A stretch of 64,000 nucleotides of DNA, taken from Dehalococcoidales bacterium. Its GTDB lineage: Bacteria; Chloroflexota; Dehalococcoidia; Dehalococcoidales; W693. Position numbers and translations under genes: made by a program. Shown piece after piece: positions 2,566-63,185 of the stretch. The stretch is taken from contig DAOUDM010000019.1 in NCBI GenBank assembly GCA_034431095.1, forward strand, positions 13,653 to 77,652, given 5' to 3'. The notes under the pieces are model-generated. The model was given only the letters and a program-made list of their open reading frames with translations, did not search any database and was not told the origin of the DNA. Numbering within the stretch: the first letter of the stretch is position 1; each line of letters begins with the position of its first letter.

Positions 2566-2722
2566 GCGGGGAGTTTGAGGGGCGAAGCCCCTCATTAAAA
2601 AGCTTCCCCTTCCCCTTGGCAAGGGGAAGGGGATAAAGGGGATGGGGTTGATAAGAATAAGACACACTTCTATCTTTTCCCACCCGCCGCCCTTTAAGGA
2701 ATAAGATAAGGGGGTGAGGTAG
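2566..2722. repeat. intergenic hairpin-repeat cluster C1 (modules M1+M2+M6)
   Basis: Contains hairpin TGAGGGGC-GAA-GCCCCTCA (2576-2594) and a 13-bp perfect hairpin TCCCCTTCCCCTT-GGC-AAGGGGAAGGGGA (2605-2633) with tail TAAAGGGGATGGGGTTG. It then has TTCCCACCCGCCGCCCTTTAAGGAA. Near-identical copies occur at 39860-39945 and, inverted, at 50459-50545. Confidence 0.85.
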
Positions 2723-4147
2723 ATAAATCCTATAAAGTTTGGCACCGACGGCTGGCGAGCAATCATCGCCGAGGACTTCACCTTTGACAACGTTCGCCTC
2801 TGCGCCCAGGCGGTCGCCGTATATCTTAAAGACAGCGGGCTGGCACAAAGGGGGCTGGTCATCGGCTACGATACCCGCTTTGCCTCCGAAGACTTTGCCC
2901 GGGCCGCCGCCGAGGTAATCTGCGGCAACGGGATAAAGGTATACCTGTGCCCCAGAGCCGCCCCGACGCCGATGGTCAGCTATGGCGTCCTGGCAAAGCA
3001 AGCCGGCGGGGCTATCGTTATCACCGCCAGCCATAACCCGCCGCAATGGAACGGCTTCAAGTACAAGTCGGCAAACGGCACCAGCGCCCCGACGGAGGTC
3101 ATCGCCGAGCTGGAGAAGAGCATCGCCACTATTACCACTACGGGCAAGATAAGCCGAATACCGCTGGCTGAAGCTCAAAAACAAGGGCTGATAGAATACA
3201 CTGATCTGGCGCCAAGCTATGTAGAGCAGATAAAGAGCCTCATAGACCTTGACGGATTAAGAAAAGCCGGGCTCAAGATAGTGGTTGACTCTATGTACGG
3301 TGCCGGCGCTGGCTACTTTAAGATGCTTCTGGATGGAGGTGCCACAAAGCTCCTGGAGATAAACGACGAACGCAACCCTGTCTTCCCCGGCATAAAACAG
3401 CCGGAGCCGATTGCCGTCAATCTAGCTAAGTTATCAGACAGGGTCAGGCGGGAAAAGGCTGACATCGGTATCGCCACCGACGGCGATGCCGACCGTATCG
3501 GCATTATAGATGAAAAGGGCAACTTCCTGACCCAGCTCCAGGTCTTTGCCCTGCTGGCGCTATATCTTCTGGAAGTGCGTGGTGAGCGGGGCGCCATTGT
3601 TAAGACGATAACCACCACCAGCATGCTCTACCGTCTGGGCGAGATATTCAATGTGCCTGTCTATGAAACACCGGTGGGCTTTAAGTACGTCGCCCCGATA
3701 ATGCTCGCCCGGAACGCCCTCGTTGGTGGGGAGGAGAGCGGTGGCTATGGCTTCCGCGGGCATGTGCCCGAGCGCGATGCTATACTCAGCGGACTCTATT
3801 TCCTTGATCTGATGGCCAGGACGGGCAAGACGCCATCGCAGTTGCTGGACTACCTCTACAGCAGGGTAGGTCCTCACTACTACAGCCGTCTGGATATAGA
3901 GTTTGCCGAGGAGCAGAGAGAGAAAATAATCAGCCGCGTCCGGGATAGCTCTCCGGAGACGCTTGGCGGGGTTAAGGTGGCTAACAAAGACACCATCGAC
4001 GGTTTCCGCTTTACCCTGGCCGATTCCTCCTGGCTTCTCATCCGCTTTTCCGGCACCGAGCCACTGCTCCGCATCTATAGCGAAAGCAATAGCCAGTCCC
4101 GCGCCGAAAGACTGCTCGAACTGGGCCGGGAGATAGCCGGGGTCTAG
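2723..4147 (+). CDS. phosphoglucomutase/phosphomannomutase family protein (alpha-D-phosphohexomutase)
   Basis: Has the active-site TASHNP motif and the conserved N-terminus KFGTDGWR, which is encoded at 2735-2758. The frame is open from 2723. The first canonical start is ATG 2972, which would delete about 80 conserved residues. The proposed start is ATA 2723 (or 2732), downstream of AAGGGGGTGA (2708-2717). Confidence 0.8.
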   Translation: MNPIKFGTDGWRAIIAEDFTFDNVRLCAQAVAVYLKDSGLAQRGLVIGYDTRFASEDFARAAAEVICGNGIKVYLCPRAAPTPMVSYGVLAKQAGGAIVITASHNPPQWNGFKYKSANGTSAPTEVIAELEKSIATITTTGKISRIPLAEAQKQGLIEYTDLAPSYVEQIKSLIDLDGLRKAGLKIVVDSMYGAGAGYFKMLLDGGATKLLEINDERNPVFPGIKQPEPIAVNLAKLSDRVRREKADIGIATDGDADRIGIIDEKGNFLTQLQVFALLALYLLEVRGERGAIVKTITTTSMLYRLGEIFNVPVYETPVGFKYVAPIMLARNALVGGEESGGYGFRGHVPERDAILSGLYFLDLMARTGKTPSQLLDYLYSRVGPHYYSRLDIEFAEEQREKIISRVRDSSPETLGGVKVANKDTIDGFRFTLADSSWLLIRFSGTEPLLRIYSESNSQSRAERLLELGREIAGV

Positions 4148-39487: not shown

Positions 39488-39547
39488 AGTCAACCCCTTG
39501 AGCTAATTATATCACTCGGTTGCCGTCAATTATAGGCTTCCTTGAAG

Positions 39548-39955
39548 GTTGGCGGGTGGCTATAGATAAATAAAAGAGAGATTATTTTTCTTAGCAACCT
39601 CTCCCTGCTTAATCCCCCTCTCCTATCAATGAGAGGGGGAAATATCTATAATGGAGGGACTGCGTCCCTCCAAGCCTCCCGCTTTTATAAATGCAAAGCC
39701 TTTCTTAAGCTCTCCAATTTATCGTTCTTCCCTCTCCCTTTAATGAAGGGAGAGGGATAGAGGGTGAGGGATTTATAATAGTTCGCCCCTCTCAAACTCC
39801 CCATTTAAGTCCGTGCCATCTTAAACAACCATCCTAAGCATCCCTGTTTTTCGTTTAAGGGGGGAGTTTGAGAGGGGCCAGCCCCCTCAAATAGAACTTC
39901 CCCTTCCCCTTATTAAGGGGAAGGGGATAAAGGGGATAGGGTTGGTGAAGAAATA
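39548..39955. repeat. intergenic hairpin-repeat cluster C2 (M6-M3-M4-M5 followed by M1-M2)
   Basis: Hairpins lie at 39613-39640, 39653-39671 (GGAGGGAC-TGC-GTCCCTCC) and 39730-39756. A long-range inverted pair lies at 39781-39802 / 39861-39885. M2 with its tail spans 39897-39944. The left part is collinear with C8 and the right part with C1. Confidence 0.9.
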
Positions 39956-42568: not shown

Positions 42569-42598
42569 GGAGCGGGCTTGACTGACCGCTCCTTTTTT
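42569..42598 (+). terminator. intrinsic terminator after rpmE
   Basis: GGAGCGG-N10-CCGCTCC followed by TTTTTT. Confidence 0.75.
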
Positions 42599-42614
42599 GT
42601 TAGGAGCTTTTATT

Positions 42615-43517
42615 ATGGCGGGTAAACTCCATTATGGTGGACAGGCGGTTATGGAGGGGGTGATGATGCGCGGGCAGAAGACCGTAGCCACTGCGGTACG
42701 CCGCCCCAACGGCGAGCTGATTATTCAGAATAAACCTCTATCCTCCATCTATACCGGCCGGATGCGAAAAGCCCCGTTTATACGGGGTGTTATCGTCCTG
42801 CTGGAATCGATGGTGCTCGGCATCGGCAGCCTGATATACTCGGCTAATGTGGCGCTGGAAGAAGAGGAAGAGAAGATATCGGGCGGCTCGGTCTGGTTGA
42901 TGCTGCTGTTTTCACTGGTACTTGCCGTCGGTCTGTTCTTCCTGGCTCCCCTTTTCCTTACCAAGCTACTAGACCCCTATATCGGTTCGTCGCTGGTCTT
43001 TCACCTGATAGAGGGCGGGATACGGCTGGCTATCTTCCTGGGCTACCTGTGGCTGATGTCTTTGCTGCCCGATATAAAACGGGTCTTTGCCTATCACGGC
43101 GCCGAGCACAAGACGATTAACGCCTACGAAGACGGGGCGCCGCTGGAAGTAAAAGCAATCGGTAAATACAGCACCGCCCACGCCCGTTGTGGCACCGCTT
43201 TCCTGCTGGCGGTGCTGATTATAGCCATCCTCGTTTTTGCCCTCGTTGGCCGCCAGGAGGTATGGCTGATGGTGCTGTCACGGGTTCTCCTGCTGCCGGT
43301 TATAGCTTCTCTGGGCTACGAGGTAACCCAGTTCGGTGCCAGGCATTTGAAAAATGGCTTCGTCCGGGCGATGATGGCTCCGGGGCTATGGTTGCAGAAA
43401 CTGACTACGCGTGAGCCGGATGACAGACAGGTAGAGGTCGCTATCGCCGCCCTGGAATCGGTGCTAGCCAGCGACCGGGAAGCGGCTCAAGCGGTGTCTT
43501 CCCCGGACAACCTCTGA
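42615..43517 (+). CDS. DUF1385 (YqhQ-like) membrane protein
   Basis: Has the [15 protein letters not shown]-terminus and HGAEHK motif. ATG 42615 has an AGGAG SD 8 nt upstream. Confidence 0.8.
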
Positions 43518-43807
43518 AAGAAGCAGCTTCTTTCGCCGGTGTGGCAGGTCGGGCCCAGTGGTTTTGCCTTGACCAGGATGGCATCGCCATCGCAGTCCCG
43601 CCATAGCTCTCTTACCATCAGGCGGTTGCCCGAGGTAGCCCCCTTGTGCCACAGCTCCTGACGGCTGCGGCTGTAAAACCAGACCTCGCCGCTGGACAGA
43701 GTGCGCTCTATGGACTCCCGGTTCATATAGCCCAGCATCAGCACCTCGCCGGTATCGGCGTCCTGGACTATAGCCGGTATGAGCCCCTTTTCGTTAAACT
43801 TTAGATT
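43487..43807 (-). CDS. hisI: phosphoribosyl-AMP cyclohydrolase (start codon unresolved)
   Basis: HisI motifs are present ([31 protein letters not shown]). The frame is open only from 43807. The first canonical start, GTG 43744, would remove the conserved GLIPAIVQD strand. In-frame ATG-GGG-TTA-TTG-TAA lies immediately upstream (43822-43808). Confidence 0.75.
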
Positions 43808-43810
43808 TTA

Positions 43811-44055
43811 CAATAACCCCATCCCTCTATTTATTTTGTTAATCTCTCCCCCTTAATCCCCCTCTCTTTAATAAAGAGAGGGGGAAGAGGATTAGAGGGG
43901 CTTCGCTCCTCTAAAACACCCTGTAATACTTTAAGATTTTGTATCTCTTAGACACCCTGTAATATATTTATAGGTTTCACCTCTTTTAAACACTCCTTTT
44001 ATCCCCCCTTCCTTTGGCAAAGGAAGGGGGTCAGGGGGATGGATTTTCCCAGCTT
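43811..44055. repeat. intergenic hairpin-repeat cluster C3 between hisA and hisI
   Basis: Contains an M2-tail complement (AACCCCATCCC), an M3 hairpin (TCCCCCTCTCT-TTAATAA-AGAGAGGGGGA), a degenerate M1 (GAGGGGCTTCGCTCCTC) and an M2 variant. That variant reads CCCCCTTCCTTT-GGC-AAAGGAAGGGGG with tail TCAGGGGGATGG. Confidence 0.85.
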
Positions 44056-44063
44056 TCTCTCTC

Positions 44064-44777
44064 CTAGCTAACGGTGTCCAGTGCCTGTTTTAGATTGATG
44101 TCTCCGGTATAGAGCGCCTTGCCCAGTATGGCGCCGGCGGCGCCGAGCTTCTTCAATACCTTGAGGTGAATCAGGGACGAGATGCCGCCGGAGGCGATAA
44201 CGGGAAACTTGGTTGAGTCAATCAGCTCAAAGATAGCGCAGAAGTTGGGCTCGGTCAGGGTGCCGTCACGGCCGATATCGGTATAGATGAAACGCTTCGC
44301 CCCGAGCTTTACCATAGAGTGGACGAACTCCACCACCCCCAGCTCTGTATCCTGCTGCCAGCCGTGGGTTGCCAGACAGCCCTCTCTGGCATCGATGCTG
44401 ATTAAGACGGACTTGTTGAAGCGGCGGCAGGCTTCTTTAACCATCTCTGGGTCTTCTACCGCCGACGTGCCCAGAATGACACGGTCAACCCCTGCTTTGA
44501 ATAGCTTCTCAATCGTCTTTATATCACGGATGCCGCCGCCTACCTGGATGGGAATTAGCAGTGAGTCGGCTATCTCCGTGATGATGTTCAGGTTCTGGAG
44601 ATTGCCGCTGGCGGCGCCATCGAGGTCGACGATATGCAGTCTCATCGCCCCCAGCGACTGCCACTTCATAGCCGTGCCCACCGGGTCGTTGGAGAACACC
44701 GTCTCCATACCGTAGTCGCCCTGATACAGGCGGACGCACCTGCCATCTCTCAGGTCTATAGCCGGAATAACTTCCAT
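44064..44777 (-). CDS. hisA: 1-(5-phosphoribosyl)-5-[(5-phosphoribosylamino)methylideneamino]imidazole-4-carboxamide isomerase
   Basis: 237-aa ORF with MEVIPAIDL.DG.CVRL.QGD and the (beta/alpha)8 HisA pattern. Confidence 0.9.
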   Translation of the reverse strand: MEVIPAIDLRDGRCVRLYQGDYGMETVFSNDPVGTAMKWQSLGAMRLHIVDLDGAASGNLQNLNIITEIADSLLIPIQVGGGIRDIKTIEKLFKAGVDRVILGTSAVEDPEMVKEACRRFNKSVLISIDAREGCLATHGWQQDTELGVVEFVHSMVKLGAKRFIYTDIGRDGTLTEPNFCAIFELIDSTKFPVIASGGISSLIHLKVLKKLGAAGAILGKALYTGDINLKQALDTVS

Positions 44778-48289: not shown

Positions 48290-48507
48290 TTAGGGAGTCT
48301 AAGAGAGGCGAAGCCTCTCTTAGACTCCCTTCCCCCTCCCTTATCAAGGGAGGGGGATACAGGGGGAGGGTTGTATTGAAAATCAAAGGGGAGTGGATGG
48401 GGAAGGCTCTTATAATAGAACTCTTTCTTTCCCACCCAAGCCCGCCCTCGTCAGCTTCTTTAAAATATCGGGGGGGTAGCCCCACCGCCCCTTAAGGAAG
48501 GATAGGG
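48290..48507. repeat. intergenic hairpin-repeat cluster C4
   Basis: Contains a 17-bp perfect hairpin GGGAGTCTAAGAGAGGC-GAA-GCCTCTCTTAGACTCCC (48293-48329) and an M2 variant TCCCCCTCCCTT-ATCA-AAGGGAGGGGGA with tail TACAGGGGGAGGGTTG. M6 complements (TTTCCCACCC, CCCCACCGCCCCTTAAGGAAGG) follow, and the cluster ends in GGATAGGGTTG. Confidence 0.85.
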
Positions 48508-50437: not shown

Positions 50438-50454
50438 GGCTTAGTGTTTTAGTC

Positions 50455-50548
50455 TTAACAACCCTATCCCCTGTATCCCCTTCCCCTTACAAGGGGAAGG
50501 GGAATATTTTTATAAGAGGGGCTTCGCCCCTCTCGGACTCTCGATTTA
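50455..50548. repeat. intergenic hairpin-repeat cluster C5 (M2+M1 in inverted orientation)
   Basis: CAACCCTATCCCCTGTATCCCCTTCCCCTT-ACA-AGGGGAAGGGGAA is followed by GAGGGGC-TTC-GCCCCTC. This is the reverse-orientation counterpart of C1. Confidence 0.9.
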
Positions 50549-57307: not shown

Positions 57308-58174
57308 CTATGTTTTTGGCTCAAGCTCAAGGCTGAAGTCCAGCGCCTTCGCCGAGTGGGTTATAGCGCCAACGGAGATGGTATCGACCCCGGCCAGAGC
57401 CACCGTGCGGACGTTATCCAGTGTTATGCCTCCCGAGGCTTCGGTCTTTACCTTCGCCGGCATTAACTCCATCACCCGTTTTATCTGGTCAGGGGGTATA
57501 TTGTCCAGCATAACTATATCGGCGCCGGCATTAGCGGCTTCTATCGCCTCGGCAGTGGTATCGACCTCTATTTCAATTTTTAAGCCCTCGGGGGCATTCT
57601 TTCTGGCCCTGGTTATTATGTCTGCCAGGCTCATACCCAGCGCCCGTAGTGCCGCTATATGATTGTCCTTGATAAGAATCCCGTCGCCGAGGTGGAGGCG
57701 GTGGTTCTGCCCGCCGCCGATGCGTACCGCATATTTGTCGAGCAGTCTCATACCCGGTGCCGTCTTGCGGGTATCGGTTATGATGGTGGCAAATCCCTTT
57801 ACCCGGGCGACGTATCTGGCTGTCTCGGAGGCGACGCCGCTCAGGCGGCTCAGGAAGTTGAGGGCGACCCGCTCCGCCCTGAGAATACCTGCCACGTTAC
57901 CGGCGATGGTGGCTACCCTGTCCCCCGCTTTTAGCCCTTCTCCATCCGGGATAAGTAGCTCTACCGCCAGCGATGGCTCAGCCCTGACAAACACCAGCCT
58001 GGCGATGTCACCGCCAGCCAGTATGCCTTCTTCTTTAGCCACTATGGCTGCCCTGCCGGCGAGGTCGGCTGGTATCAGTATCTGGCTGGTTATATCACCA
58101 CCGCCGGTATCCTCGGCCAGCGCCAGGTCTATGATTCTATCAACCTGCTCTTCGGATAGTTGAAGTTTATCCAT
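57308..58174 (-). CDS. nadC: nicotinate-nucleotide diphosphorylase (carboxylating)
   Basis: 288-aa ORF with the QPRTase pattern (AL.ED.G.GD.T, RKT.PG.R, IMLDN). Confidence 0.9.
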   Translation of the reverse strand: MDKLQLSEEQVDRIIDLALAEDTGGGDITSQILIPADLAGRAAIVAKEEGILAGGDIARLVFVRAEPSLAVELLIPDGEGLKAGDRVATIAGNVAGILRAERVALNFLSRLSGVASETARYVARVKGFATIITDTRKTAPGMRLLDKYAVRIGGGQNHRLHLGDGILIKDNHIAALRALGMSLADIITRARKNAPEGLKIEIEVDTTAEAIEAANAGADIVMLDNIPPDQIKRVMELMPAKVKTEASGGITLDNVRTVALAGVDTISVGAITHSAKALDFSLELEPKT

Positions 58175-58194
58175 CTACCTCACCCCTGTAACAT

Positions 58195-58512
58195 TCTCTT
58201 GGAGGGTGGTGGGTGGGTATAGATACTAAAAGAAAAATTACTATTCATAACAACCTCTCCCCCTTAATCCCCCTCTCCTTGTAAGGAGAGGGGGAGGGTT
58301 AATATGGAGGGACTGCGTCCCTCCAAACCTCCCTCTATTATGTTTTATATGGGTTATATTCCCCTAAACCTCACTCTATTGTGTTTATATGGGCTGTATC
58401 CCCCAAACTTCCCTTTCGAGCTTTGCCCCTCTTAAACATTCCTTTTATTCCATTTATTCCCTCTCCCTTTATTACAAGGGAGAGGGATAGAGGGAGAGGG
58501 ATTTATATAATT
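58195..58512. repeat. intergenic hairpin-repeat cluster C8 (M6-M3-M4-spacer-M5) between nadB and nadC
   Basis: Holds GGGTGGTGGGTGGGTATAGA, an 11-bp hairpin at 58268-58295, GGAGGGAC-TGC-GTCCCTCC at 58306-58324, and an 11-bp hairpin at 58459-58486 with tail ATAGAGGGAGAGGGATTTATA. It is collinear with the left part of C2. Confidence 0.9.
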
Positions 58513-62974: not shown

Positions 62975-63185
62975 CTTTAACAACCTTTCCCCTTAGCCCT
63001 CTTCCTTAAGGGTGGTGGGTGGGAATAGACAGTAAGAGAGGGATTTATATTTGCTACCAACCTCACCCCCTTAATCCCCCTCTCCTTATAAGGAGAGGGG
63101 GAGATATAAGAAAGAGGGGGCATAAGCCCCCTCTAAACACCCCCTTCCAGGTGCTGGTTAGGGGAGAGAGATAAAAAGAAATAGG
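62975..63185. repeat. intergenic hairpin-repeat cluster C9
   Basis: Contains M6 (GGGTGGTGGGTGGGAATAGA), an M5 tail fragment (AGAGGGATTTATA) and an M3 11-bp hairpin at 63075-63102. An M1-type hairpin AGAGGGGGC-ATAA-GCCCCCTCT lies at 63113-63134. Confidence 0.85.

What the first reader, a model, noticed from the sequence alone, without database searches (positions are those of the whole stretch)
43744..43825. hisI: conserved N-terminus lies behind an in-frame stop that follows a repeat-derived ATG
On the minus strand the frame reads ATG GGG TTA TTG TAA AAT CTA AAG TTT AAC GAA AAG GGG CTC ATA CCG GCT ATA GTC CAG GAC (43822 down to 43760). That translates as [20 protein letters not shown]. The segment [15 protein letters not shown] is the normal HisI N-terminal strand, yet the only canonical starts are upstream of the TAA (ATG 43822, TTG 43813) or far downstream (GTG 43744). 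The ATG belongs to the repeat tail motif GGGATGGGGTT. The sequence AAATCTAAAGTTT after the stop resembles AAATCCTATAAAGTTT at the pgm-like 5' end (2725-2740). This suggests both 5' ends were rebuilt by the same repeat terminus. Possible explanations are a nonsense mutation or pseudogene, stop read-through, reinitiation after a 4-codon uORF, ATA 43780 initiation, or a sequencing error.
Basis: seen in the sequence. Interest (0 to 1): 0.55.

Follow-up and report, generated by a model that had tools for sequence, protein, structure and literature searches.

The report
One-base stop in hisI codon 2
The histidine-biosynthesis gene hisI in this genome carries a single-base change that puts a stop codon straight after its start codon, a change a near-identical sister assembly lacks, so it is an ordinary very recent knockout or a base-calling error rather than an unusual way of making the protein.

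Summary
The sequence reads exactly as described: ATG GGG TTA TTG TAA AAT CTA AAG TTT… on the minus strand, 43822 down to 43799.

- **What the stop is.** Relatives with the same gene order carry the same leader, with TTG GAA or TTG AAA where the window has TTG TAA. TTG (43813-43811) is the ancestral start. TAA is a one-base nonsense change at base 43810, in codon 2.
- **It is private to this assembly.** The remaining 106 codons are 100% identical to an intact 108-aa HisI (MENLKF…) on a public 145-kb contig. That contig also carries the window's exact HisA, L27 and GatC. The truncated 83-aa call exists on only one public contig (84.9 kb).
- **It is not recoding.** No relative conserves the stop, and none of the 120 closest homologues starts at GTG 43744.
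- **Likely consequence.** Canonical-start products would lose strand β1. The allele is probably a young loss-of-function variant, or else a consensus error. Only reads can decide.
- **The repeat idea is partly right.** The hisI and pgm leaders do end in the terminus of one repeat family. This is old and shared with relatives, and it did not cause the stop.
- **Side observation.** In related metagenome contigs this terminus often leaves ATA as the only possible start of intact housekeeping genes.

The parts
43808..43810 (-). In-frame TAA at codon 2 of hisI. The variant base is 43810: T on the coding strand, where relatives have G or A.
   Evidence: sequence. L081/L082 have TTG GAA and L083 has TTG AAA at the same position; the nearest proteins begin M/L-E-N-L-K-F or MGLLKNLKF.
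43811..43813 (-). TTG, the ancestral start codon of hisI.
   Evidence: in L081/L082 the upstream ATG is ATA, so TTG is the only start there. JGI gene calls P0006 and P0010 begin with the TTG-encoded L. A Shine-Dalgarno-like GAGGG lies 9 nt upstream.
43820..43822 (-). Incidental in-frame ATG inside the G-rich leader. It is not the conserved start.
   Evidence: this ATG is ATA in L081/L082 and ATG in L083. The G-run abuts the ATG with no spacer.
43815..43828 (-). Second repeat tail and Shine-Dalgarno region (GAGGGATGGGGTT). It is the positional homologue of …AAGGGGGnGAGGT in relatives.
43836..43919 (-). Copy of the intergenic repeat (hairpin 1 GAGGAGCGAAGCCCCTC, hairpin 2 CCCCCTCTCTTTA/TAAAGAGAGGGGG, tail GGGGGATTAAGGGGGAGAGATTAAC). 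It is also present at this place in relatives.
   Evidence: nhmmer hit 43919-43847, E=8e-11.; the block is present in L081-L083.
43487..43807 (-). Remaining hisI reading frame: 106 sense codons plus TGA. It is intact and holds the complete PRA-CH domain and the conserved N-terminal strand.
   Evidence: 100% identity to P0001 residues 3-108. PF01502, E=5e-33. PDB matches; structure model.
43736..43744 (-). First canonical in-frame starts after the stop: GTG 43744-42 (V24) and ATG 43738-36 (M26). ATG 43738 is the start of the public 83-aa call.
   Evidence: P0138, 83 aa, one NCBI contig of 84,923 nt; these codons lie inside strand β2, after β1.
43961..43990 (-). Promoter-like site (TTTAAA-18-TATATT) in a spacer block conserved in relatives.
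   Evidence: conserved columns about 98-131.
44000..44060 (-). Window-specific 61-nt insertion in the hisA-hisI spacer. It is a partial repeat copy consisting of a hairpin and a tail.
   Evidence: gap in all three relatives; inverted repeat I3; partial nhmmer hits.
43910..43944 (-). Window-specific 35-nt duplication in the spacer (a second TATTACAGGGTGT…TAGAG).
44064..44777 (-). hisA, the intact upstream neighbour (237 aa).
   Evidence: PF00977 on the orthologue; the exact protein is on two public contigs.
2569..2722 (+). Long-form repeat upstream of the pgm-like gene. Module 1 ends in GGGATGGGGTTG (TTG at 2648-2650). A 72-nt second module then ends in AAGGGGGTGAGGTAG.
2723..4147 (+). pgm-like gene whose first sense codon is ATA (2723-2725). 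No canonical start occurs for 83 codons.
   Evidence: the truncated 391-aa call is on both sister contigs.

Best explanation
hisI in this assembly carries a one-base nonsense substitution (GAA to TAA, base 43810) in codon 2, immediately after the gene's ancestral TTG start at 43813-43811. A ribosome starting at TTG, or at the incidental upstream ATG, terminates at once. Nothing else in the gene, its repeat-derived leader or its neighbourhood is altered. The allele is therefore very young. It is most likely a real loss-of-function or strongly leaky variant segregating in a population whose other members keep the intact gene.

Shown: the change is a single base, it is absent from relatives and from a sister assembly, and the rest of the gene is intact. 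Inferred: the base is real rather than a consensus error, and the protein is not made in useful amounts.
For: - **Relatives have a sense codon at this position.** The DNA alignment with three loci of the same gene order (gatC-nfeD-hisA-hisI-DUF1385-L31-L27-coaE) shows an identical leader and N-terminal codons, with GAA, GAA or AAA where the window has TAA.
- **No wider relative has a stop there.** Twenty-two further relatives all have a sense codon at this position.
- **Close homologues keep the full N-terminus.** All 120 closest homologues cover 95-100% of a query that includes the N-terminus. The nearest ones begin MENLKF, LENLKF or MGLLKNLKF.
- **An intact allele exists in a near-identical assembly.** P0001 (108 aa) matches the window's 106 post-stop codons at 100%. 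It sits on one public contig of 145,298 nt.
- **The two assemblies are otherwise the same at this locus.** The window's exact HisA, L27, GatC and truncated pgm product are each on two public contigs, the longest being 145,298 nt. The truncated 83-aa HisI is on one contig of 84,923 nt.
- **The gene lineage was under purifying selection.** dN/dS against L081 is 0.084, and there is no second lesion.
- **The assembly does not look error-prone.** The window is 91% coding with no visibly split genes.
- **Canonical-start products would lack core structure.** Products from GTG 43744 or ATG 43738 would lack strand β1 and the start of β2, which are modelled at pLDDT of about 90. These are conserved in solved structures. 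In the PRA-CH β-grasp fold the first strand lies in the centre of the sheet (PMC8102479).
Against: - No reads are available, so a consensus error cannot be separated from a real variant.
- The sister contig's DNA could not be retrieved. The GAA there is inferred from its protein.
- The four proteins identical between the two assemblies (about 800 aa) mean they are extremely close. That lowers the expected number of real differences and raises the relative weight of an artefact.
- The 83-aa product still contains the entire Pfam PRA-CH model, so residual activity is not formally excluded.
Confidence: 0.5

Rival explanations
1. The T at 43810 is an assembly, consensus or library artefact. The organism really has TTG GAA and a normal hisI.
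For: The intact allele exists in an otherwise protein-identical sister assembly. The remaining 106 codons are untouched. A stop in codon 2 of a gene under strong purifying selection is unexpected a priori. G-to-T changes are the classic signature of oxidative damage during library preparation (own knowledge).
Against: The window looks well assembled, with 91% coding density and no split genes. No paralogous repeat copy carrying TTGTAAAATC exists in the window or in 1.2 Mb of related DNA that could have misled polishing. Consensus substitution errors are rare at normal coverage (own knowledge).
Confidence: 0.33
2. The allele is real but hisI is still expressed by a non-standard route. Candidates are reinitiation after the TTG-TAA start-stop (or after the 4-codon ATG uORF), initiation at a non-canonical codon such as ATA 43780, or low-level read-through of TAA.
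For: In this clade, intact genes whose only possible start is ATA are common behind the same type of leader. They include hisI in L005 and L008, the window's pgm, and purD, cobU, ahcY and pgm in metagenome contigs. The L005 and L008 hisI genes are under strong purifying selection, with dN/dS 0.04-0.09. In E. coli every codon tested supports some initiation, and AUA reaches 0.02-3% of AUG (10.1101/063800). A product starting at ATA 43780 would keep most of strand β1.
Against: The codons right after the stop (AAT, CTA, AAG) are not near-cognate starts at the leader's start position. ATA 43780 lies 30 nt downstream, with its G-run only 2-3 nt away, against 8 nt in the working leaders. The stop is not conserved in any relative, so there is no sign of selection for such a mechanism. 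TAA is used as an ordinary stop in the window.
Confidence: 0.1
3. A recent insertion of the repeat rebuilt the hisI 5' end in this genome, bringing in the ATG and cutting off the true start.
For: hisI's leader contains a repeat copy and a tail motif identical to that of the pgm-upstream copy. The window does have two lineage-specific insertions in the spacer.
Against: The repeat copy, the second tail, the TTG and the first codons are all present at the same place in relatives of 83-93% nucleotide identity. More distant Dehalococcoidales have them in variant form. The window-specific insertions lie 100-250 nt upstream of the start. The only difference at the start is one base.
Confidence: 0.03
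4. A short HisI starting at GTG 43744 or ATG 43738 is the normal, functional form.
For: The 83-aa product contains the complete Pfam PRA-CH model, profile positions 1-74 of 74.
Against: None of the 120 best homologues is truncated there. The N-terminal 25 residues are conserved through to solved structures. They form β1 and part of β2 of the core sheet. The synonymous-heavy divergence pattern covers these codons too.
Confidence: 0.02

Closest known systems
Young nonsense allele (nascent unitary pseudogene) or consensus error in a metagenome-assembled genome
   Same: A single premature stop in an otherwise intact, conserved gene. The stop is absent from the nearest relatives and from a sister assembly. 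There are no accompanying lesions.
   Different: The stop falls in codon 2, directly after the start. The gene therefore looks start-less rather than truncated.
Start-stop minimal ORFs and short uORFs with termination-reinitiation in bacteria
   Same: TTG-TAA is formally a start-stop, and ATG GGG TTA TTG TAA is formally a 4-codon uORF in front of the coding body.
   Different: Known cases are conserved and have a usable start codon near the stop. Here the arrangement is unique to one assembly, and no start codon lies nearby.
Small intergenic repeats that contribute expression signals or coding sequence to neighbouring genes (REP/BIME, Neisseria Correia elements, Rickettsia palindromic elements, MITEs; own knowledge)
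   Same: The window holds a multi-copy family of 90-165 nt with two GC hairpins. It is intergenic. Its end abuts gene starts and supplies the Shine-Dalgarno run, the start codon and about 3 codons to hisI, pgm and nadC here, and to several other gene families in related contigs.
   Different: No transposase partner, terminal inverted repeats or clear target-site duplications were shown. The directional terminus of Shine-Dalgarno run plus start codon, often with ATA as the start, is not a described property of those families as far as I know. Two literature searches found nothing for this clade.
Genes with non-canonical start codons (e.g. E. coli infC AUU; own knowledge; Hecht et al., 10.1101/063800)
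   Same: The window's pgm, and hisI in L005 and L008, have ATA at the initiator position behind a strong Shine-Dalgarno run.
   Different: This applies to the relatives and to pgm, not to the window's hisI, which has a canonical TTG followed by a stop.

Membership tests
HisI, phosphoribosyl-AMP cyclohydrolase (PF01502 PRA-CH) | Significant match to the PRA-CH profile over its full length | tested here: met
   E=5e-33, 113 bits against a cut-off of 27, profile positions 1-74 of 74. PDB 6j22, 7bgm and 1zps at E of 1e-29 or better.
HisI, phosphoribosyl-AMP cyclohydrolase (PF01502 PRA-CH) | Conserved metal-binding residues (DCDxD aspartates and cysteine, CHTG cysteine and histidine, and a later cysteine) | tested here: met
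   DCDGD, CHTG and SCFF are all present in the window frame and invariant in alignment A3. Their roles are described in PMC8102479.
HisI, phosphoribosyl-AMP cyclohydrolase (PF01502 PRA-CH) | A translatable full-length ORF: a start codon in frame with the N-terminal strand β1 | tested here: not met
   TAA 43810-08 separates TTG and ATG from the coding body. The next canonical start is V24.
Programmed stop-codon read-through or recoding | The in-frame stop is conserved among relatives | tested here: not met
   there are sense codons (GAA, AAA, AAC, AGC, GAC, GAT…) at this position in all 25 relatives inspected; the TAA variant is unique among 1.2 Mb of held sequence.
Programmed stop-codon read-through or recoding | The stop is of a recodable type with a dedicated signal (UGA with SECIS, UAG for pyrrolysine) | tested here: not met
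   The stop is TAA. All three stop codons end ordinary genes in the window. No Rfam element lies at the locus.
uORF or start-stop with termination-reinitiation | A usable start codon close to the uORF stop | tested here: not met
   the codons after TAA are AAT CTA AAG TTT AAC… The first near-cognate in frame is ATA, 30 nt downstream. The first canonical start is 66 nt downstream.
uORF or start-stop with termination-reinitiation | Conservation of the uORF architecture | tested here: not met
   relatives have one continuous ORF from the TTG.
Decayed pseudogene | Multiple disabling lesions or relaxed constraint | tested here: not met
   106 of 106 residues are identical to the intact allele; dN/dS is 0.084 against L081. 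There is only the one stop, so if real it is very young.
Intergenic repeat or MITE-like family (the leader) | Multiple similar copies in one genome, in intergenic positions | tested here: met
   eight full-length nhmmer hits (E from 1e-27 to 1e-8) plus partial ones in 64 kb; all fall in gaps between ORFs.
Intergenic repeat or MITE-like family (the leader) | Internal hairpins or inverted repeats | tested here: met
   two GC-rich hairpins in each copy.
Intergenic repeat or MITE-like family (the leader) | Evidence of mobility (target-site duplication, empty sites) | tested here: inconclusive
   relatives L084 and L085 lack the 72-nt second module found before the window's pgm, and GATAA flanks both sides; window-specific insertions lie in the hisI spacer. 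No systematic comparison of empty and filled sites was made.
Genes initiated at ATA (side observation: window pgm, hisI of L005 and L008) | ATA occupies the initiator position of a conserved protein, with no canonical start available | tested here: met
   Pfam profiles start at residues 2-5 after the ATA in purD (two contigs), cobU, ahcY and pgm, while the first canonical start is 23-109 codons inside. Searches give the sequence contexts.
Genes initiated at ATA (side observation: window pgm, hisI of L005 and L008) | Direct evidence that translation starts at ATA | not testable with these tools
   This needs N-terminal proteomics, ribosome profiling or reporter assays.

The most novel reading that the evidence does not exclude
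The hisI 5' end is one instance of a directional intergenic repeat that is widespread in Dehalococcoidales. Its terminus (…AAGGGGGnGAGGT[T/A]G ATA AnA ATC T) acts as a portable translation-initiation module. It donates the Shine-Dalgarno run, the start codon and the first 3 or so codons to many unrelated housekeeping genes: hisI, hisG, pgm, nadC, purD, cobU and ahcY. In its TAG-ATA form it leaves ATA as the only possible start codon of genes that remain under purifying selection.

On this reading the window's TAA is a mutation inside that repeat-derived segment. It is much less likely (about 0.05-0.1) that the same permissive initiation still rescues this allele.
Probability: 0.45. Interest if true: 0.65.

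Novelty: already known. Interest (0 to 1): 0.3.

Why it matters
For hisI itself the result matters little. It flags one base (43810) that should be checked against reads before anyone infers histidine auxotrophy for this organism. It also shows that the gene should be annotated as a disrupted hisI with a TTG start, rather than as an 83-aa protein.

The by-product is more useful. Gene callers that allow only ATG, GTG and TTG systematically truncate genes sitting behind this repeat leader. An example is the 391-aa pgm call in both sister assemblies. If ATA initiation behind this leader is real, it would be a natural system in which a repeat element distributes a translation start site with a weak start codon across a genome.

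Tried and rejected
- **Retrieving the source and sister contigs failed.** Exact-protein look-ups of HisA, P0001 and the 83-aa product returned nothing. The sister's codon 2 is therefore known only from its protein.
- **The junction scan found nothing.** A metagenome scan for the junction with N at the variable base gave no matches. That collection evidently lacks this lineage, including L083.
- **I first read the pgm TAG (2720-22) as a mutated TTG start and rejected this.** The same GGTGAGGTAG leader precedes an ATG in the nadC-like gene. It also precedes ATA in 90 metagenome sites. So TAG belongs to the leader, and ATA occupies the start position.
- **A paralogous donor was looked for and not found.** No repeat copy carrying TTGTAAAATC exists that could explain gene conversion or mis-polishing.
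- **tRNA hopping over the stop (TTG to CTA) was dismissed.** The two codons are not read by the same tRNA (inference).
- **A-to-I editing was considered early and dropped.** It cannot turn TAA into a sense codon that would restore hisI.
- **Rfam found only two tRNAs** in the window.
- **Literature searches found nothing** on repeats or non-canonical starts in Dehalococcoidia.
- **The spread of start-less upstream stretches across window ORFs is as chance predicts,** apart from pgm. There is no sign of a genome-wide annotation anomaly in canonical genes.

Full report
**Observation**

The minus strand reads ATG(43822) GGG TTA TTG(43813) TAA(43810-08) AAT CTA AAG TTT AAC GAA AAG GGG CTC ATA CCG GCT ATA GTC CAG GAC. 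The first canonical start after the stop is GTG 43744, followed by ATG 43738. The motif GGGATGGGGTT occurs exactly at 43815-43825 (-) and 2639-2649 (+). The pgm-like gene reads TAG(2720) ATA(2723) AAT CCT ATA AAG TTT GGC. The description is accurate.

**What the stop is**

- A protein search with the post-stop frame returned thousands of HisI proteins. The 120 best all cover 95-100% of the query, N-terminus included.
- The nearest proteins begin MENLKF… (P0001, P0002), LENLKF… (P0006, a TTG-encoded first residue kept as L) or MGLLKNLKF… (P0017).
- Contigs encoding P0002 and P0017 have the same gene order as the window: gatA, nitroreductase, gatC, nfeD, hisA, hisI, DUF1385, L31, L27, coaE.
- In the DNA alignment of the hisA-hisI junction the whole leader is orthologous. 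L081 and L082 read GGATAGGGTTATTG GAA AAT CTA AAG. L083 reads GGATGGGGTTATTG AAA AAT CTA AAA. The window reads GGATGGGGTTATTG TAA AAT CTA AAG.
- TTG 43813-11 is therefore the ancestral start. In L081 and L082 the upstream ATG is ATA, so TTG is the only option there.
- The TAA is a one-base change at 43810 in codon 2. Twenty-two more distant relatives also have a sense codon at that position.

**The stop is private to this assembly**

- P0001 (108 aa, MENLKF…) matches window 43807-43490 at 100% over residues 3-108. It is recorded on one public contig of 145,298 nt.
- The window's exact HisA, L27, GatC and the truncated 391-aa pgm product are each recorded on two contigs, the longest being 145,298 nt.
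- The 83-aa product that a gene caller makes from the TAA allele (ATG 43738) is recorded on one NCBI contig of 84,923 nt.
- So two near-identical assemblies span this locus. One has the intact gene, and one, presumably the window's source, has the stop.
- The DNA of neither contig could be retrieved.

**Consequence for the protein**

- The 83-aa product retains the full Pfam PRA-CH model, which covers residues 26-99 of the 108-aa protein. It loses 25 residues that align with solved HisI structures 6j22, 7bgm and 1zps.
- An AlphaFold model of the window protein has mean pLDDT 78.6, and about 90 over the first 40 residues. It places β1 at IPAIVQD (ancestral residues 12-18) and β2 at VLMLGYM (residues 24-30).
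- The structural paper on HISN2 describes the PRA-CH core as a β-grasp in which the first and last strands lie in the middle of the sheet (PMC8102479).
- A product from V24 or M26 would lack a central strand and is probably inactive. This last step is inference.

**Real variant or artefact**

- The window is 91% coding, with an intact ribosomal-protein cluster and no obviously split genes. All three stop codons are in ordinary use.
- No paralogous repeat copy carries the T variant that could explain mis-polishing or gene conversion.
- hisI in this lineage shows dN/dS of 0.08.
- These points make a random error unlikely a priori. But the two assemblies are so close (about 800 aa identical) that few true differences are expected either.
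- My estimates are: real young loss-of-function or leaky allele about 0.5, artefact about 0.33, functional rescue about 0.1. Only reads can decide.

**Recoding and reinitiation**

- The stop is not conserved. It is TAA, and no RNA element is detected at the locus.
- The codons after the stop are AAT CTA AAG. The first near-cognate in frame is ATA 43780, 30 nt downstream, and its G-run is only 2-3 nt away.
- In E. coli near-cognate codons initiate at 0.02-3% of AUG and other codons at 0.01-0.2% (10.1101/063800). Trace expression cannot be excluded, but there is no evidence for a mechanism.

**The repeat**

- A profile built from three clear copies finds eight full-length copies in the window: 2569-2659 (+), 39864-39954 (+), 50449-50540 (-), 48295-48377 (+), 58242-58330 (-), 43847-43919 (-), 63054-63136 (-) and 39586-39677 (-).
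- Each copy has a GAGGGGCGAAGCCCCTC-type hairpin, a second CTTCCCC…GGGGAAG hairpin, and a tail GGGGAT·AAGGGG···GGTTG.
- Four copies continue into a second module (…CCCACCCnCCnCCC…). In the two that abut genes, pgm and the nadC-like gene, that module ends in AAGGGGGTGAGGTAG.
- In the hisI leader the first tail aligns to GGGGGAGAGATTAAC (about 43849-43836). The GAGGGATGGGGTTATTG next to the gene is a second tail.
- In L002, L003, L005, L008 and L013, hisI is likewise preceded by the repeat and a second tail: TAAGGGGGnGAGGT[T/A]G ATA AnC AAn CTA AAG TTT. The window's TTA TTG aligns with their TTG ATA.
- The association of hisI with the repeat terminus is therefore old and shared, not a recent rebuilding.

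**The pgm-like gene**

- In relatives the gene starts at the TTG that ends module 1: GGGATAGGGTTG AAA AAT AAT CCT ATT AAA TTT in L084, and GGGTTG ATA AAC AAT CCC in L085.
- In the window, the 72-nt second module lies between that TTG (2648-2650) and the coding body. This leaves GGTGAGG TAG ATA(2723) AAT CCT ATA AAG with no canonical start for 83 codons.
- The same leader precedes the ATG of the nadC-like gene at 58174.
- The truncated pgm call is present in both sister assemblies. Unlike the hisI stop, this state is reproducible.

**Side observation: ATA at the start position**

- hisI in L005 and L008 also reads GGTGAGG TAG ATA…, with no canonical start before the conserved N-terminus.
- These two genes are only 79% identical to each other at the nucleotide level. 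Each is closer to TTG-ATA relatives than to the other, and both show dN/dS of 0.04-0.09.
Most ATA sites carry the repeat tail upstream. The sequence after TAG tends to be ATA AnA ATC T whether or not a gene follows.
- Twenty-one ATA sites lead into long ORFs.
- In purD (two contigs), cobU, ahcY and pgm, the Pfam profiles begin at residues 2-5 after the ATA, while the first canonical start lies 23-109 codons inside the domain.
- ATA therefore sits at the initiator position in several unrelated families. Whether it is used directly, or through a GTG-AGG-TAG mini-ORF followed by reinitiation, is not known.
- Two literature searches for this clade found nothing on it.

**Verdict**

The finding is a correctly observed but ordinary event: a private one-base stop in codon 2 of an otherwise perfect hisI. 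It is either a young knockout or a consensus error. The repeat leader with ATA at start positions is the part worth following up.

Noticed in passing
window 2569-2725 (+) and pgm-like ORF 2723-4147: The pgm-like gene has ATA (2723-2725) at its initiator position behind the leader AAGGGGGTGAGGTAG. No canonical start follows for 83 codons. In relatives the gene starts at the TTG that ends repeat module 1, but here a 72-nt second repeat module lies in between. The truncated 391-aa gene call is present in both public sister assemblies.
   Followed up: yes
window 2569-2659, 39864-39954, 48295-48377 (+); 39586-39677, 43847-43919, 50449-50540, 58242-58330, 63054-63136 (-): The window holds an intergenic repeat family with two GC hairpins and a G-rich directional tail ending in GGTTG or GGTAG. 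There are eight full copies in 64 kb plus partial ones. Four copies carry a second module with the core CCCACCCnCCnCCC (2680-2692, 39547-39559, 58204-58216, 63010-63022). Rfam has no match.
   Followed up: partly
L005:2986 and L008:244 (hisI); metagenome loci L086-L205, e.g. L159:3218, L133:88 (purD), L147:871 (cobU), L101:8053 (ahcY), L154:7752 (pgm), L194/L189/L146 (hisG): Many intact housekeeping genes in related contigs begin with ATA directly after GGGGTGAGGTAG and have no canonical start nearby. Pfam profiles begin 2-5 residues after the ATA. After this leader ATA outnumbers ATG by 90 to 37. This suggests ATA is used as a start codon in this clade, or that reinitiation follows a GTG-AGG-TAG mini-ORF.
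   Followed up: partly
window 58172-58186 (-): The nadC-like gene (57308-58174) uses the same second-module leader CAGGGGTGAGGTAG, followed by ATG. This shows that the position after TAG is a working start position.
   Followed up: yes
window 44000-44060 and 43910-43944 (-): The hisA-hisI spacer has two insertions that three close relatives lack: a 61-nt partial repeat (hairpin plus tail) and a 35-nt local duplication. The spacer appears to be a hot spot for repeat growth.
   Followed up: partly
L085:1135 (GCA_016183505.1): The NCBI annotation of this pgm homologue (P0144, MNNPIKF…) appears to use ATA as its start, although an in-frame TTG lies one codon upstream (GGGTTG ATA AAC AAT CCC).
   Followed up: no
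window 43487-43517: The 3' end of hisI overlaps the 3' end of the convergent DUF1385 gene (42597-43517, +) by 31 nt. The same overlap is seen in L081 and L082.
   Followed up: no
L005:~2890-2930: Upstream of hisI in L005 a second repeat terminus carries GGTGAGGTAG ATG AGC AAT CTA, followed only by a short open frame. This is an ATG version of the terminus that does not sit in front of a recognisable gene.
   Followed up: no
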